In this document: positions 21,001 to 27,000 of the stretch, one piece after another
Numbering within the stretch: position 1 is the stretch's first letter
How the letters are laid out: every line of letters starts with the position of its first letter
DNA from: Phycisphaerae bacterium
Lineage (GTDB): Bacteria; Planctomycetota; Phycisphaerae; UBA1845
Reading direction: 5' to 3'
Length of the DNA: 64,000 bases
Assembly: GCA_963666835.2 (NCBI GenBank)
Contig: CAXXGO010000006.1
Coordinates: forward strand, 864,001-928,000
Position numbers: made by a program

Positions 21001-24000
21001 GTGATGGCGTCGATGCGCTCTCCGTAGCTGGTCTGCGTAAAATCCGATTCCATGGTGGGCTCGTAGGGGCCGATGAACCCGATCGCGTACCACGACGTCA
21101 GGTCGTTATGGCCATCGGACCACAGGTGATAATTCAGCCCAATCGTCCACGTGCCGGCGGGGAGCTGCAGCTCACGCACCATGTAGACCTGGCCGTCGTC
21201 ATTCCTGCCGTCGGCCGTGAAATCAAGTGATGACAGACCATCCTGGGCCTGCTCCGTGGAGGGCCACACCGACCACGCGATGGGTGGATTGCCGATCCGA
21301 GCGCGCCAGGGCCCGAACCCGTCCTCAAAGGACTCGAAGATCGTGTCTGCGGTCGCTGGGGCCCCCGCCGTCAACAACCCGAACACAAACGCGATCGCGC
21401 AGATTGCTCGCATGCTTCTCAACATAAAACGCCTCCTTCGTGTGTACAGGCGGCACTTTCCGCCATCCGGAATTACCGTTCTCGCCGTTCGACCGACTCA
21501 ATGCCGCTCCCGGAAGGTGGCCGCGGATCTCAAGCTGCCGTTGGGCTGTGAGCAGTGTTGAACTCGCGGGATGCGAGGCACGGCTCAAGCGGTATCAGCA
21601 CACCCGTATCTGCGCACTACTTCCTCAGGATACGGCTCTAGAAAGGCGTCTGTCCCGATACGCACTTCCTGCGGCGCGGTCCAACACCGGTTACCGGCAC
21701 TGCGCCGCCTTCACAGAGACAAACCTACCGCCGGGTGCGATCCCCTGCATCCGCACCACATGGCCCTCCCCAGAAGCTGACGACCAGACGACGGCGACCC
21801 CGGTTCCTTAGTCTGCCGGAAACCGAGGGCATCGTATAATGCAACCAATCCCTCTATTAGGCAATCCGTATTCGGCGCCGGTTTTCGCTAATCGGGCACC
21901 GAAGAAGTCCCTCTCCAGGCGTTGGGGGGCACGGTTGCACGAATCGTCAGGCGGTCTATCATCGCGCAAGGTCAGGATGAGGACTAAAACACATGACATT
22001 TGACGAGTTACAGGCGATCATCGAGAAGATGTACAGTGACAAAGACAGAGCGCGGGGCACGCCGGCGACGTTTCTGTGGTTGACCGAGGAGATCGGCGAG
22101 CTGGCGTCCGCATTGCGCGAAGGCACTCACGCGGAGAAGTGCGCGGAGTTCGCCGACGTGATCGCCTGGCTGGTGACCCTGGCCAACATCAACAACGTGG
22201 ACCTGACCGAGGCACTCCACGCCAAGTACGGCAACGGCTGCCCGGGATGCGGGCATTTTGTTTGCGAGTGCGACTCCAAGCCCTGATCGCCTCGCAAGAC
22301 CGCGTTTTGGTTCCTATAACCACCAACTGCAAATGCCGTCTGGGAAAGGCGTCTTTGTTGCGCGTGGTACTGCGTCGATGCTACTCTCGCCGGCACTACG
22401 CTCGCACTCAGACTGTGATTGAGGCGATGTGCTGATGACGCCGAAACCCCGGATTTTCTTGAGTTCGGATGCTCCTCCAGCTATTATTGGTATTCATTAA
22501 GAGCAGGTACGCGGGGCGTCTTGGGTCGGTTTTCGCCAATCCGAACGGGGTGTCTCTGCAAATACGTTTTTGATGCAAGCAGCATGGAGTGCTGGTGATG
22601 AATGACTATCCATTCCGGGTCGCCCGCCGGTTTCAGCGGGCCGGTTCGCTCGGAGTTGCCGTGGCCTTCGGTATCGTGACCCTTGGCGGGGTAGGCGCGG
22701 CACACGCGGCCGATCGCATGGTGTTATGCGAGGAATTCACGAACCAATATTGAGCGGCGTGCTCTTACGCGGGTCCCGCGTTAGGCTACCTCGTCGACAT
22801 CTACCCTGAGTCGTTCGCGTTCGTACAGTATCACATGTTCGACGACTACGATGACCCGTGGAGCGATGGTCGGTGGTCGTATTTCGGCGCCGAGCACACT
22901 CCGACGACCATCTTCGACGGGGTTGATTACGTCGAGGGCGGAATCAGCGATACTAACCAGCAGTATCACATCTTCCGAACCAACCACTTTCTCCCGCAGC
23001 GCGCGGTGCCGACGGATGTGACGCTCGAGCTGGCCGGTGAGTTCGTTACCGGGCAGACTTACCAGATCACGGCCACCGTGGGCATCGAGGCGGGGGGAAC
23101 GGGCAAGACCGTCCGGGTCTACATGGTGCAAGTTCTGGACCACTGGCCGGCGTCGCCGAGCTACTCGCGCAACACGTTCAAGCAAGCGGGCGACGTCAAA
23201 GAGATCACCCTCGCTCCCGGCGAGACCGATGCTGCGGTGGAGATGTTTACGTTCGACGCGGATAGCTGGGCGAATCAGGAGGAGATCCGGATCATCGCGT
23301 GGGCCCAGGCCGCGGAGGATGCCGGTCCGGTCGAAATGTACCAAGCCGCGGTTCTGAACTGGCCGCTGGTCTCCGCCCCCGGCGACGCCGACGGTGATGG
23401 CATTCTGGACGGGGCGGACAACTGCCCGCAGCACTACAACCCGACCCAGGACAACGGCGACACCGACGATTTCGGCGACGTGTGCGACAACTGCGATACG
23501 ACGGACAATGCGGACCAGGACGATGGTGACGACGACAGCGTCGGCGATGCCTGTGACAACTGTCCGGCACTACATCATCTCGATCAGGGCGATAACGACG
23601 GCGACGGGGTCGGTAATCCGTGCGACTGGTGCCCCGACGTTTCCGCTCCCGGCGGGGTGGACGAAGACGGGCGTTCCCTGGGAACGATCGACCTCGATTG
23701 CGACGTGGACGGCGACGACCTGGCCCTGTTCAACGGGTGTTTCACCGGTCCGGATATCACGGAACCGCCTCCGGGATGTGATCCGGCCGATTTCGCCCGG
23801 GCGGATCTCGACGGAGACATTGACGTCGACCTGGGCGACCGGGCGATCTTCGATCAGAACTACACCGGCCCGCTGGTCGGGCCGGCGTTGTACACCGGGT
23901 CCACCGCCTGTTCTACTTGCCACTCGACGAATCACACGGAATGGGCCGAGACCATCCACGCCACCGCGTTCGATACACTGGTAGCGAGCGGAGACGGAGA

Positions 24001-27000
24001 CAACCCCTTGTGCTTCCCGTGCCACACGGTGGGGTACGCGGAGGCGAGCGGTTTCGTCGACTTGGCCACCACACCGCAACTTGCGGACGTTCAATGTGAA
24101 AACTGCCATGGAGCCGGCAGCAACCACATCGCGTCTCCCGGCAGCGCGTCGATGACGATTGACCTGGCCTCGAACCTCTGCGGAGCGTGCCACCAGTCAT
24201 GCCACGGGTTGTGCGGGGACGATCACCATCCCCAGTTCGAACAATGGTCGGAGTCCAAGCACTCCACGGCGCTGAGCGACATTCAGTGGGAGCCCGGCAC
24301 GGTTGCAGAGTGCCTCGAATGTCACTCCACGGACTACCGCATGGCCCCCGCAGGGGATAAGCCCGGCCTGTTCGAAGTAGTGTTCGATCTAGAGTGCGTG
24401 GCCTGCCACGACGCTCACGGAGGGCCCAACGTCGGCCAGCTTCGCCTGCCGCCGCGGCAGTTGTGTGCCGAGTGCCACACCACCGGCGTGGTGGTGCCCG
24501 GCGAAGAGCCCGAGCAACCGCAACTCGAAGCCCTGCACGGGGAAGGCGGCTTCAAGCTGGACGGCACCTCGTTGAAAGGGCCTTATACCGAGCACTGGTG
24601 GGGAATCCCGACGGAATGCGCCGCCTGCCATGTGTTCGCCGAGCCCTACGGCGGGCCGGATCAGCCGGTCAACAGCGGGCACACCTTCGAAGCGAACCGG
24701 CGGGCTTGCGGCCCGTGCCACACGGAAGAATCCGCCAACGCCCTGCTGGGCATGTTGCAGGGAGAGATCTCGGCACGCCTGGCGGGCATCGCCCATTACT
24801 TCGATCCTGGTGATCCGCTGTATGTTGACCCGGCGACCCTGACCCCGGAGCAGTTGGCCCGGTACAACGTTGCCAAGTTCAACTACGAGTTCGTGATCGC
24901 GGACAGGTCCCACGGCGCGCACAATCCCGGCTACGCCCGGGCGTTGCTGGCCCAGACTGAGTTCTTTTTCGGGATCACACCCTGGTTGCTTCAACCGGGA
25001 GGAGACGATATTCCCGCGCCGGCCGACGGTGTTCTGGAGATTGCAGAAGGAGCGGAGGTGGGCCGATGAGGATCACTCGACGTGAGTTCCTGAAAGCGGC
25101 TGCGGCCATGGTCGCGGCGGGGAAGATGGCTCCCGTAGCATTCGCGAACCTGCAGGAGACTCTGCGGGGCGAAGGCGCGCCACGAGTCATCTGGCTGCAA
25201 GGGGCGGGTTGCGACGGATGTGCGATCTCGCTGTTGAATTCCGTGCATTACACGACGGTCGACGACCTGCTGGTCAACACGATCGATCTGGAGTTCCAAA
25301 ACAACCTCATGGCCGCGGCCGGTGATCTTGCGGTATCGATCGCGCAAGCCGCCGCCGCCGAGCCCGGCTATATCCTAATCGTTGAGGGGGCCGTCCCCAC
25401 CGGAGCGAGCGGCCAGTATTGCCGGCTGTGGTCGGGAATGACGATGCACAGTGCCCTGCTCGCGTACGGCCCGGACGCCGGCAGTATTATCGCGTTGGGG
25501 GCTTGCGCATCGTTCGGGGGGGTCTCGGGTGGGGCGCCGAACCCGACCGACGCCCAAGGTGTGGGCGACATCATCGGAGACGACCCGCGGTTGATTAACA
25601 TCCCAGGTTGTCCGGCCCACCCCGATTGGCTTGTGGGCACTCTGACGTACCTGCTGACCACGGGGCATACTCCGCCGTTGGATGAGTATCACCGGCCTTT
25701 GGAGTATTTCGGCAAGCGGATTCACGACAACTGCTTCAAGCGGCGCGAGTATTGCGGTACCGGGGTTTTTGCCTCCAACCTCAGCGAAGAGGGCTGCATG
25801 GAGTTCCTCGGCTGCAAGGGCAAGAAGACCTACGCTGATTGCCCGATCCGCAAGTGGAACAGCGGTGAAGAGGGCGGCAGCGGTGTGAACTGGTGCATCG
25901 GGGCGCGGAGTCCGTGTCTTGGTTGCGTGGAGCCCACTTTCCCGGACGGGATGTCTCCGTTCTACGTGTATTCGCCTACCCCGGAGAAACTCGAGGGGGG
26001 CGCCGGCTCCGAAACGCTGCAGACCAAACCGCAATCGATTGACAAGAAGCCGAGTTGAAACACCGGCTGGTGAGCTAAGAAGCCCTAGTCATTTGGGGAG
26101 AGATATATGGCGACGACGATCACAATTGACCCGGTAACCCGCATTGAGGGCCACCTCGAGATCGAAGTGACCGTCGATCTGGTCGGCGGTGACCAGCAGG
26201 TCATCTCCGCCAAGAGCGTGGGGAAGATGTTCCGCGGGTTCGAGATGATCCTGGCCGGTCGGGACCCGCGCGATGCCGCGCAATACACCCAACGCATTTG
26301 CGGAGTGTGTCCGGTGTCTCATGCGATGGCCTCGACCAGGACGCTGGACAACGCCTTTGGGGTCACTCCCCCGGACAACGGCCGGATCGTGCGCAACTTG
26401 ATCCTCGGGGCGAACTTCATCCAATCCCACGTGTTACACTTCTACCACCTTTCGGCGGTAGACTTCATTGATACGACGGGACTGCTGGATCTTTCGCCGT
26501 GGGCTCCGCGCTACGTCACTGCGGACATGGCGACCGGGGCTACGGCCGGCACGCTGGTGAACAACTACCTCGCGGCACTTGCTATCCGACGTAAGGCGCA
26601 TCAGATGGGGGCTATTTTCGGAGGCAAGCTCCCGTGTACCGGTTCTTTTGTGGTCGGTGGGGTCACTGAAGTAGTCAGCGCGGAGAAGATCGCCGAGTTT
26701 AGGAGTCTCCTGACGGAAATTCGCAGCTTCATCGATAACGTGTATATAGCGGATGCCACGACGGTGGCAGGTCTGTTCCCGGATTACTACTCGCTTGGTG
26801 TCGGAAACGGCAATCTGCTTGCCTATGGCGCTTTCGACCTTAACTCCGCGGGCACCAGCAGACTCTTCGCAAGCGGGCGGCGTACGGACGGCTCGGCGCA
26901 AGCGATGGACCCGGCCGACATAACCGAACGGGTAACGTATTCGTGGTATACGCCGGCCTGCGACGACCTTAACCCCGCCGCCGGCGCGACGGAGCCGGAC

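What a model noticed while it worked through the whole genome (the two positions that open the first line are those of the whole stretch)
22589..25069. Selenocysteine Omp28-like redox domain fused to a nonahaem cytochrome c at the head of a [NiFe] hydrogenase operon
The genes called g03105 + g03106 are one 826-codon reading frame with an in-frame TGA (codon 55) read as selenocysteine: a signal peptide, a ~230-aa Omp28-like thioredoxin-type domain with the motif EEFTnqyUaaC, Asp-rich thrombospondin-type linkers and a C-terminal cytochrome with nine CxxCH sites. It lies directly upstream of the Tat-signal small and the large subunit of a periplasmic [NiFe] hydrogenase (g03107, g03108; Cys, not Sec, in the large subunit), the HycI protease (g03109) and a mono-haem protein (g03110). 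Fusion and gene order are kept in relatives, so this selenoprotein-cytochrome is the likely redox partner of the hydrogenase. Two paralogues carry the same Sec domain on other b [...]
Evidence so far: Readthrough frames and coding score; Pfam on the read-through protein: Cytochrome_C554 1.6e-15, Paired_CXXCH_1, MtrC/MtrF domain; NCBIfam NF045500 'Omp28-related selenoprotein' only weakly (39 and 63 bits, cut-off 200; call 28), a distant branch of the family listed as GOS_C, UxxC, in the 2026 review (PMC13188914, table passage, call 81). Order search of 100 other genomes: 13 have the domain; of the 36 matches listed (3 own) 23 contain exactly one TGA and 13 none (Cys forms; one of the 13 starts after the Sec site, one is a 57-aa fragment). 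tblastn of g03106-g03110 on four relatives: cytochrome, small subunit, large subunit, HycI, g03110 in the same order in 3 of 4, cytochrome plus part of t [...]
(Added by a program. Inside this text positions count along the whole contig: contig position 864,001 is position 1 of the stretch shown here. "Call 12" and the like, gene names such as g00115 and contig names such as C1 are that model's own, and its searches are not shown. The text may have been shortened before it was handed on; [...] marks where a part breaks off. The agent that wrote the report below was given it as the finding of a first reader that could run no searches.)

Follow-up and report, generated by a model that had tools for sequence, protein, structure and literature searches.

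The report
Selenium-cytochrome partner of a hydrogenase
A gene that databases split at a 'stop' codon really encodes a secreted selenium-containing thioredoxin joined to a nine-haem cytochrome with an altered active site; it heads a widely conserved hydrogenase operon in uncultured planctomycetes and probably uses electrons from hydrogen to break sulfur-sulfur bonds outside the cytoplasm.

Summary
Confirmed and extended. The TGA at 22751 is a selenocysteine codon. It sits on the first Cys of a thioredoxin CxxC. Fused orthologues split 21 TGA / 21 Cys, and a SECIS-type hairpin follows 18/21 TGA but 2/21 Cys copies. The genome has selA, selB, selD and tRNA-Sec. The product (823 aa, likely start ATG 22598) is signal peptide, HBP35/Omp28-like Trx+Ig domain, TSP3, dockerin-like repeat, nonahaem. 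The nonahaem has the fold of the terminal reductase OcwA (Z 26), not of a simple carrier. It keeps OcwA's haem-2 His-His pocket, has lost the haem-5 pocket, and has gained an invariant Cys-His-x-x-Cys beside haem 2. The hydrogenase small subunit follows in 39/44 fused loci, and those large subunits form one clade. Paralogues outside the operon swapped the Trx domain for an unrelated, apparently uncatalogued CGU selenoprotein domain and kept the Cys pair. Best model (0.5, inferred): H2 → hydrogenase → haems → haem-2/Cys pair → Sec/Cys → S–S substrate, analogous but not homologous to the polysulfide reductase MccSep. No activity, expression or domain contact is shown. Sister hydrogenases lack the gene.

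The parts
22598..25069 (+). Sec-thioredoxin / TSP3 / dockerin-like / nonahaem fusion gene, 823 aa with UGA read as Sec52
   Evidence: AF2 pLDDT 85.8, pTM 0.74
22586..22589 (+). GGAG ribosome-binding-site candidate 8 nt before ATG 22598
   Evidence: sequence
22598..22711 (+). Signal peptide (basic N-region, one hydrophobic stretch, AHA-type cleavage site; judged by eye and hydropathy, no predictor run)
   Evidence: the only KD19>=1.5 segment starts at residue 17
22712..23371 (+). HBP35/Omp28-like domain: thioredoxin fold (about aa 39-138) plus Ig-like part (139-258)
   Evidence: VIA Z 22.4 to HBP35 5Y1A, 19.2 to 2AXO, 12.9 to thioredoxin, 12.3 to Omp28 domain 2R2C
22751..22762 (+). UxxC active site (TGA 22751-22753; Cys55 in 55/55 fused copies)
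22767..22781 (+). SECIS-type hairpin: 6-bp stem, GUC loop 19 nt after UGA, -7.8 to -8.3 kcal/mol
   Evidence: enriched in TGA forms; fits the bacterial model in PMC13188914
23384..23638 (+). Thrombospondin type-3 Asp/Cys-rich repeats
   Evidence: COMP/TSP-2, E about 1e-42 with the profile
23684..23872 (+). Dockerin-like double repeat (weak support)
   Evidence: profile hit to 4FL4 E 0.023; PF00404 precomputed on two relatives; NF041540 below cut-off on a paralogue
23888..24997 (+). OcwA-type nonahaem cytochrome (c554-like haems 1-4, NrfA-like haems 5-9, C-terminal helices)
   Evidence: Z 26.2, rmsd 2.7, 330 aligned to 6I5B
24200..24229 (+). Invariant C535-H536-x-x-C539 loop followed by H543-H544 (aligned to OcwA's haem-2 distal HH 281/282)
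   Evidence: (95/95)
25066..26058 (+). Hydrogenase small subunit, twin-Arg signal, no C-terminal membrane helix; ATG overlaps the fusion's stop (ATGA)
   Evidence: 0 of 37 orthologues with a hydrophobic tail
26107..27555 (+). [NiFe] large subunit, closest to periplasmic [NiFeSe] enzymes but all-Cys
27593..28138 (+). Hydrogenase maturation protease HycI
28135..29286 (+). Secreted mono-CxxCH protein (conserved ~170-aa domain of no known family, then a C-terminal anchor module shared with the Sec paralogues); conserved fifth gene
22459..22487 (+). sigma70-like promoter candidate (no more than chance: 2 found, 1.7 expected)

Best explanation
The gene encodes a secreted multihaem selenoenzyme that forms a soluble, extracytoplasmic H2-fed S-S reductase with the co-encoded Tat-exported [NiFe] hydrogenase. 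Shown at sequence level: UGA recoding signals, domain order, the OcwA-type fold, the invariant Cys-His-x-x-Cys beside the haem-2 His-His pocket, and a conserved five-gene operon. Inferred: electrons from H2 pass from the small-subunit FeS chain (perhaps via the mono-haem protein) into the haem chain and collect at haem 2. There one Cys of CHGLC ligates or sits next to the iron and reduces the U52-C55 selenosulfide, which cleaves an S-S substrate. Polysulfide/elemental sulfur is my first guess (about 0.3 overall); organic or protein disulfides come second. Cys orthologues would do the same more slowly. With no membrane subunit in the operon, the module would be an electron sink or redox-poising device unless it also trades electrons with the genome's NrfD/13-haem complexes.
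For: TGA/TGY 21/21 and SECIS 18/21 vs 2/21, 19/21 vs 2/17 at identical AGPA peptide. At least 5 Sec/Cys switches are forced by starred branches, so this is not one lineage. CHxxC is in 119 of 120 listed homologues and invariant in 95/95. Among 68 parsable representatives, 60 have no Cys there, 5 have CHGxC (all this family) and 3 are parse artefacts. The HH aligns with OcwA HH281/282, while OcwA's haem-5 HH is replaced by EQ. The small subunit follows in 39/44 fused loci; 36 fusion-linked large subunits form one clade, SH-aLRT 98. All 5 Trx-less paralogues carry an unrelated N-terminal CGU Sec domain and keep CHGxC. Fusion-specific residues in the Trx domain (H130 54/55 vs 1/30, P133 55/55 vs 2/30) and pTM 0.74 over 823 aa suggest packed domains. 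Precedent for haem 2 + Cys + Sec cleaving polysulfide: MccSep (PMC13510729). HBP35 has Cys-dependent thioredoxin activity (PMC2907840 abstract).
Against: No activity, expression or Se data, and the distance from U52 to C535/C539 could not be read from the model. AF2 confidence is lowest around the CHGLC loop (blocks 60 and 68; 540-542 below 50). Both Sec modules are promiscuous: 30 unfused vs 55 fused Trx copies in my loci, and only 6 of 30 CGU loci are clearly fused to the cytochrome. The CGU swap is one or two events, not five. Half the orthologues have Cys, whereas MccSep U325C loses activity. One homologue (P0108) lacks the CxxC but keeps CHGLC. Twelve sister hydrogenase loci lack the fusion. 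No sulfur-handling gene was recognised in the operon; only one sister locus (L250) has genes that look like rhodanese/YeeE by eye. A soluble H2-to-sulfur short circuit conserves no energy by itself (inference).
Confidence: 0.5

Rival explanations
1. Plain electron carrier or surface terminal reductase. The nonahaem takes hydrogenase electrons to membrane NrfD complexes, or to Fe(III)/humics as OcwA/OmhA do. The Trx/Sec domain is a built-in maintenance unit (keeps apo-CxxCH thiols reduced, repairs oxidative damage), and CHGLC is structural.
For: OcwA and OmhA are the closest structures and are cell-surface Fe(III) reductases (PMC6703420, PMC7829351 passages). The hydrogenase has no membrane anchor and needs a carrier. 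Two sister loci pair the hydrogenase with a dockerin-tailed decahaem instead (L178, L183). The genome has two NrfD genes beside 13-haem proteins. HBP35 binds haemin.
Against: Stand-alone nonahaem lipoproteins of the same order mature without a Trx domain and lack CHGLC. Replacement of Trx by a non-Trx CGU domain fits chalcogen chemistry better than CcmG-like maturation.
Confidence: 0.25
2. CHGLC binds a metal (Cu) over haem 2, making an MccA-like oxyanion (sulfite/nitrite) reductase. The Sec/Cys module loads the metal or keeps the two Cys reduced.
For: Haem 2 is the active site in c554, OcwA and MccA, and MccA carries Cu there (PMC6703420). Two Cys plus His are invariant. Octahaem nitrite reductases match at Z 17. 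That MccA's Cu is held by two Cys is recalled, not checked.
Against: The MccA sequence match covers haem 1 only (E 0.002), and no CxxCK or other non-canonical haem motif is present.
Confidence: 0.12
3. Reverse or protective use: thiols or sulfide are oxidised at the Sec site and the electrons leave as H2, or H2 is spent to reduce peroxide and protect or reactivate the exported hydrogenase.
For: The nearest solved enzymes are [NiFeSe] hydrogenases, which are reversible (recalled). Many UxxC proteins are antioxidant enzymes (PMC13188914 text).
Against: Sulfide-to-H2 flow is uphill under standard conditions (general knowledge). No peroxiredoxin motif is seen. Nine haems and a dedicated Cys loop are excessive for repair alone.
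Confidence: 0.1
4. The TGA is a true stop or pseudogene lesion, and the downstream 744-aa ORF is the gene.
For: Databases list it so (P0002). The 80-nt region as a whole folds no better than shuffles (z 0.58).
Against: TGA falls at the same codon in 27 of 55 fused copies and is Cys in 27. A SECIS co-occurs, Sec machinery is complete, and the signal peptide lies upstream of the TGA.
Confidence: 0.02

Closest known systems
OcwA (Thermincola potens, 6I5B) and OmhA (Carboxydothermus ferrireducens, 6QVM)
   Same: Nine CxxCH, c554+NrfA haem core with C-terminal helices (Z 26.2 and 24.5), His-His at haem 2, secreted.
   Different: Haem-5 His-His lost, no conserved Met, no beta-sheet insert between haems 1 and 2, extra CHGLC, fused Sec-Trx/TSP3/dockerin-like part, hydrogenase operon, diderm host.
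MccSep/ExtKL polysulfide reductase (Geobacter; PMC13510729; 9WT8)
   Same: Secreted multihaem selenoprotein; Sec on a separate domain plus a conserved Cys near haem 2 (shown there, inferred here).
   Different: Not homologous beyond a haem motif (E 0.059). Five haems versus nine. Sec sits in a DGUP loop of a C-terminal Ig-like domain there and in an N-terminal UxxC thioredoxin here. Its electron donor is unidentified; here a hydrogenase is co-encoded.
Omp28-related selenoprotein GOS_C / NF045500; HBP35 (5Y1A); Atu2684 (2AXO)
   Same: Trx+Ig fold, EEFT-x3-[UC]xxC site.
   Different: 100 bits against a cut-off of 200. No multihaem fusion or hydrogenase link is listed in the 2026 review's table.
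Periplasmic [NiFeSe] hydrogenase HysAB (group 1a; group name recalled) with cytochrome c3
   Same: Nearest solved large subunits (E about 1e-124), Tat signal, no membrane anchor.
   Different: All-Cys active site (35/35). The selenium is in the partner rather than the hydrogenase. The partner is an NrfA-superfamily nonahaem.
UshA-like (seleno)protein NF041198
   Same: N-terminal Sec/Cys redox motif joined to a c554-type tetrahaem (match to aa 430-535).
   Different: 110 bits against 275, no UshA domain, nine haems. The nine full UshA-like Cys homologues printed have four haems and no CHGxC.

Membership tests
Bacterial selenoprotein | In-frame UGA aligned with Cys in orthologues | tested here: met
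   21 TGA / 21 TGY among 42 readable fused copies in L051-L100
Bacterial selenoprotein | SECIS: 4-16 bp stem, 3-9 nt loop with G, 16-37 nt after UGA, MFE <= -7.5 | tested here: met
   6 bp, GUC loop, 19 nt, -7.8/-8.3 kcal/mol (model); 18/21 vs 2/21
Bacterial selenoprotein | selA, selB, selC, selD in the genome | tested here: met
   all over cut-off
Bacterial selenoprotein | Se incorporated in the protein | not testable with these tools
   needs mass spectrometry or 75Se
Omp28-related selenoprotein NF045500 (GOS_C) | UxxC in a Trx + Omp28-type Ig fold | tested here: met
Omp28-related selenoprotein NF045500 (GOS_C) | HMM score >= 200 | tested here: not met
   100.1 bits; paralogues 57 and 50
OcwA/OmhA nonahaem | Nine CxxCH and OcwA fold | tested here: met
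OcwA/OmhA nonahaem | His-His above haem 2 | tested here: met
   H543 90/95, H544 95/95, aligned to the first OcwA HH; position inferred from sequence alignment
OcwA/OmhA nonahaem | His-His above haem 5 (second active site) | tested here: not met
   E639-Q640 here; His in 1 of 95 at 640
OcwA/OmhA nonahaem | His/Met haem 9 and beta-sheet insert | tested here: not met
   no Met column >=85%; haem 1-2 spacing 34 aa vs about 110
OcwA/OmhA nonahaem | Cell-surface location, Fe(III)/shuttle reduction | not testable with these tools
   signal peptide and dockerin-like repeat only
MccSep/ExtKL | Homology to NF040886 / 9WT8 | tested here: not met
   no NF040886 hit on the window protein at E<=0.01; 11 bits vs 250 on a paralogue; E 0.059
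MccSep/ExtKL | His/Cys-ligated haem 2 with Sec within contact distance; polysulfide reduction | not testable with these tools
   model coordinates were not readable; no assay
[NiFeSe] hydrogenase HysAB | Sec in the C-terminal DPUxxC motif | tested here: not met
   DPCxxCxxH in 35/35; NF045518 526 vs 780
Soluble periplasmic hydrogenase of the HysAB type | Tat small subunit without membrane anchor; nearest to HysAB | tested here: met
   formal HydDB group not tested
UshA-like selenoprotein NF041198 | UshA domain with PCGU, score >= 275 | tested here: not met
   110 bits, c554 part only
MtrC/MtrF decahaem | MtrC fold | tested here: inconclusive
   PF22113 30.1 bits at cut-off 30; not among the listed fold matches

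The most novel reading that the evidence does not exclude
A dockerin-assembled, membrane-independent H2:polysulfide oxidoreductase on or outside the cell surface of sediment Phycisphaerae. An OcwA-type Fe(III)-reductase scaffold was converted to S-S chemistry by a Cys-His-x-x-Cys loop at haem 2 plus a plug-in selenol domain. Two unrelated selenol domains (UxxC thioredoxin and a new all-beta CGU domain) fill the same slot. This would be convergent on MccSep and would come with its own electron donor.
Probability: 0.2. Interest if true: 0.9.

Novelty: new variant of a known kind. Interest (0 to 1): 0.75.

Why it matters
The operon is common in an uncultured planctomycete order (55 near-full-length large-subunit matches at >=62% identity in 279 genomes), yet about half of its lead genes are stored truncated at UGA and named 'thrombospondin repeat protein' or 'CXXCH cytochrome'. 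If the model holds, it gives these bacteria a route from H2 to sulfur or disulfides, shows how an iron-reductase scaffold becomes a sulfur enzyme, and supplies the electron donor that is unidentified for MccSep. Natural Cys orthologues make it testable without Sec expression. The work also exposed a second selenoprotein family (CGU domain with PEP-CTERM or dockerin tails) that matches no entry I could recognise in the 2026 catalogue's table.

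Tried and rejected
Whole-region folding after the TGA is not significant (z 0.58); only the comparative test shows the SECIS. One search used a wrong offset for the pair counts (discarded, redone; its MFE comparison stands). The Trx flag failed and was ignored. In one search two rows (L170, L171) were mis-parsed. Rfam on 21400-29500 found nothing real. The promoter/terminator scan was at chance level. No RNA holder was listed. A metagenome scan with the single mono-haem protein found nothing; the alignment scan worked. The mono-haem domain has no Pfam, NCBIfam or PDB family; the Atlas best score was 0.87, with a Reeler lead at 0.85, a lead only. The CGU domain has no Pfam/NCBIfam hit and no clear fold match (Foldseek best E 0.04; best Z 4.8), which does not prove a new fold; it is not found in this genome. 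My early idea that CHGLC is tied to the Trx domain was wrong: it also occurs with the CGU domain. The careful large-subunit tree did not finish; quick trees are quoted. No complex prediction was obtained, so domain-domain and hydrogenase-cytochrome contact remain open. Literature searches with no paper describing this system: Omp28+selenoprotein (0); Phycisphaerae+hydrogenase+multiheme cytochrome (1 listing); PEP-CTERM+selenocysteine (2); group 1a+hydrogenase+extracellular+secreted (1); dockerin+Phycisphaerae (7); five-term search (0); Phycisphaer+selenoprotein (2). Those listings were judged by title and abstract start only, and subscription journals are not covered. Earlier scan notes held nothing on this system.

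Full report
OBSERVATION. The frame from 22589 to 25069 (+) has one internal stop, TGA at 22751-22753. Read with TGA=U from ATG 22598 it gives 823 aa with U52 in EEFTNQYUAAC and nine strict CxxCH. ATG 22598 has GGAG 8 nt upstream, and two orthologues begin M-N at the same place, so I prefer it to GTG 22589. The stop overlaps the start of the small-subunit gene (ATGA). The four downstream genes are a Tat small subunit, a large subunit, HycI and a secreted mono-CxxCH protein. Contigs from a second study cover the TGA unchanged (4 of the 6 listed runs were laid).

THE TGA IS A SEC CODON. The genome has tRNA-Sec, selA, selB and two selD matches, all over cut-off. Of 50 loci L051-L100 (from the 78 returned), 44 hold the Trx-cytochrome fusion and 42 have a readable site: 21 TGA and 21 TGC/TGT. 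A hairpin with four Watson-Crick pairs around a GGT codon follows 18 of 21 TGA copies and 2 of 21 Cys copies. Among copies with the identical peptide AGPA the split is 19 of 21 versus 2 of 17, so synonymous positions carry the signal. Kin are not independent, but a tree of the cytochrome domain alone needs at least 5 Sec/Cys switches on well-supported branches (quick tree). The window's hairpin (22767-22781: 6 bp, GUC loop 19 nt after UGA, -7.8 to -8.3 kcal/mol) meets the four constraints of the bacterial SECIS model (PMC13188914 section 5). Against this, the 80-nt region as a whole is not more stable than shuffles, and Se incorporation is not shown. In the protein database, 108 of 121 proteins examined carry the Trx domain; 53 of them start after the motif, as expected for UGA truncation, though some are mere fragments.

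ANATOMY. AlphaFold2 on a 95-row alignment (U as C) gave pLDDT 85.8 and pTM 0.74. Residues 35-258 match HBP35 of Porphyromonas gingivalis (Z 22.4), with a thioredoxin fold at 39-138 and an Omp28-type Ig part at 139-259. Residues 430-792 match OcwA (Z 26.2, rmsd 2.7, 330 aligned) and OmhA (24.5), then octahaem nitrite reductases and NrfA (16-17). Between them lie TSP3 repeats and a dockerin-like repeat (weak support). The only hydrophobic segment is the signal peptide. OcwA has two open haems, 2 and 5, each with a distal His-His (281/282 and 380/381; PMC6703420 section 7). In the alignment the two OcwA pairs are 99 residues apart, as in the paper. The first aligns with H543-H544, which is kept (90/95 and 95/95); the second aligns with E639-Q640, which is lost. 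Between haem 4 and that first pair the family carries S-C535-H-G-L-C539-G, invariant in 95 of 95 and present in 119 of the 120 listed homologues. Stand-alone nonahaem lipoproteins of the same order have only three residues there. Of 150 representatives at 50% identity, 68 could be parsed: 60 have no Cys in this spacer, 5 have CHGxC and belong to this family, and 3 are parse artefacts. That the loop lies over haem 2 is inferred from sequence adjacency; the model has no haems and is least sure there.

OPERON. The small subunit follows directly in 39 of 44 fused loci; 2 contigs end and 3 lack it. All five genes are in order in 32. Three lack HycI, and four are cut by contig ends or a gap. Selecting on the hydrogenase instead: 55 near-full-length large subunits at >=62% identity were found in 279 genomes of the order, and I fetched 34 of them, deliberately including all those from two divergent families. 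Nineteen have the cytochrome immediately upstream of the small subunit, 3 contigs end, and 12 lack it; many of the 19 are genomes already seen. Selecting on the mono-haem gene in metagenomes gave 40 loci: 18 show the cytochrome upstream, one has the sister arrangement (L250), and the rest are too short or hold the gene alone. The 36 fusion-linked large subunits are one side of a branch with SH-aLRT 98 (quick tree), which fits one origin of the operon. The large subunit is nearest to periplasmic [NiFeSe] enzymes but has Cys in 35 of 35 C-terminal motifs, and none of 37 small subunits has a membrane tail. Record titles name the relatives as Phycisphaerae/Planctomycetota, plus two Thermoanaerobaculia bins. 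Against an obligatory pairing: the 12 sister loci do without the gene (two have a dockerin-tailed decahaem instead), and eight paralogous cytochromes lie away from hydrogenase genes.

A NATURAL EXPERIMENT. Five of those paralogues have no Trx domain. All five instead begin, after a signal peptide, with a different domain containing Cys-Gly-TGA, and all keep CHGxC (with Tyr-His for His-His). That domain is unrelated to anything in the fusion (hhalign probability 0.09), folds as a confident all-beta domain (pLDDT 95) and has no clear structural or family match. It occurs in 44 of 279 genomes, one marginal. Of 30 loci read, 29 have TGA and 1 has TGT at the site. Six are fused to the nonahaem, 17 end in a PEP-CTERM-like tail, 5 in dockerin-like repeats and 2 otherwise (tails judged by eye). 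A stem of at least 5 pairs around a GGTC loop 22-28 nt downstream was scored in 25 of 30 rows and not in the Cys form. So the CHGxC cytochrome has an N-terminal Sec/Cys module in nearly every complete copy seen, drawn from two unrelated families; P0108, which lost the CxxC, is the exception. The weight of this is limited. The swap is one or two events, and both modules are promiscuous on secreted proteins (30 unfused vs 55 fused Trx copies).

MECHANISM. My best reading (0.5) is an extracytoplasmic H2-fed S-S reductase: hydrogenase FeS chain, haem chain, haem 2 with C535/C539, then U52-C55, then substrate, with polysulfide the first guess. The precedent is MccSep, where Cys239 ligates haem 2 and Sec325 from another domain attacks polysulfide, and where the electron donor is unidentified (PMC13510729 Results and Discussion). 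MccSep is not homologous, and its U325C variant loses activity, whereas half of our orthologues use Cys; a CxxC thioredoxin tolerates that better (general knowledge). HBP35 has Cys-dependent thioredoxin activity and binds haemin (PMC2907840, abstract only). Fusion-specific residues in the Trx domain (H130, P133, L257) and the high pTM hint at a fixed interface but do not locate it. Every step after 'the genes are conserved together' is inferred. Rivals: carrier or Fe(III)-type terminal reductase with a maintenance domain (0.25); metal site of the MccA type (0.12); reverse or protective use (0.1); true stop (0.02). Location is open: periplasm by default, surface if the dockerin-like tails are export or docking tags. 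The genome has about 75 ORFs with such a motif and several dockerin-bearing multihaems, a cytochrome c assembly gene, five secretin matches and two NrfD genes next to 13-haem proteins.

KNOWN VERSUS NEW. The parts are known: GOS_C/NF045500-like domain (below cut-off), OcwA fold, HysAB-like hydrogenase. It works, I propose, like MccSep, but it is not a member of that family, nor a canonical OcwA (haem-5 site, Met ligand and insert not met). The review's Table 1 (PMC13188914 section 7, parts 1-2 of 3 read) lists Sec multihaems (ExtKL, GSU2204, UshA-like, octahaem Otr) but no Trx-nonahaem fusion and nothing I could match to the CGU domain. Ten literature searches found no description (see Tried and rejected). 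PMC7829351 and PMC10376724 were seen as passages only. No supplements were read; MccSep's and the review's supplements might list related sequences. HydDB group names, the PF00404 name and MccA's Cu ligands are recalled. Verdict: a real, conserved, mis-annotated system, a new variant of known kinds; interest 0.75.

Noticed in passing
L088:9452-9976, L148-L177 (not found in the window's genome): Apparently uncatalogued secreted selenoprotein family: ~175-aa all-beta domain with CGU/CU near the mature N-terminus, a co-varying GGTC-loop SECIS, PEP-CTERM-like, dockerin-like or nonahaem tails; 44 of 279 genomes; Cys form in L177.
   Followed up: partly
G000:C1:1961899 (L044) and G000:C6:954451 (L045): Two paralogues with the UxxC Trx-Ig domain on haem-free bodies (one over 1300 aa with repeat modules); both end in the same C-terminal module as the window's mono-haem protein.
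   Followed up: partly
L053, L060, L066, L069, L071, L073, L084, L099: A second, haem-free Trx-Ig gene (mostly Sec) often follows the operon as a sixth gene, even where the fusion itself has Cys.
   Followed up: no
L056, L067, L072, L227: Operons without the HycI gene; in L056, L067 and L227 the large-subunit match ends near residue 466, just past the last His, suggesting loss of the cleavable tail.
   Followed up: no
L178, L183, L250: Sister hydrogenases with the mono-haem gene upstream; two have a dockerin-tailed decahaem, and L250 is preceded by genes that look like MBL-rhodanese and YeeE/YedE sulfur transporters (by eye).
   Followed up: partly
L062 and L070: Trx-Ig paralogues with Gly in place of the first Cys/Sec (GLPC) that still keep the SECIS-like stem; P0108 has lost both Cys.
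   Followed up: no
G000:C6:931431-933766 and C6:2206713-2209033: Two NrfD genes each beside a 13-haem cytochrome; the first lies just beyond the window's end; possible membrane link.
   Followed up: no
G000:C6:432932-435475 and C3:154257-156844: Two further [NiFe] hydrogenases (one without a signal peptide, HupUV-like by eye; one group-3-like by eye). One of two selD matches has an in-frame TGA.
   Followed up: no
window 9346-10818, 16844-18316, 19827-21425, 21993-22286, 29329-32115: Two flagellin genes, a Cys-rich secreted repeat protein, a small MazG-like gene (by eye) just upstream of the operon, and a CotH/beta-helix gene convergent on its end; none is conserved next to the operon in the 20 regions.
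   Followed up: no
L085, L100: The full operon in two bins titled Thermoanaerobaculia (Acidobacteriota), nested among Phycisphaerae sequences: transfer or mis-binning.
   Followed up: no
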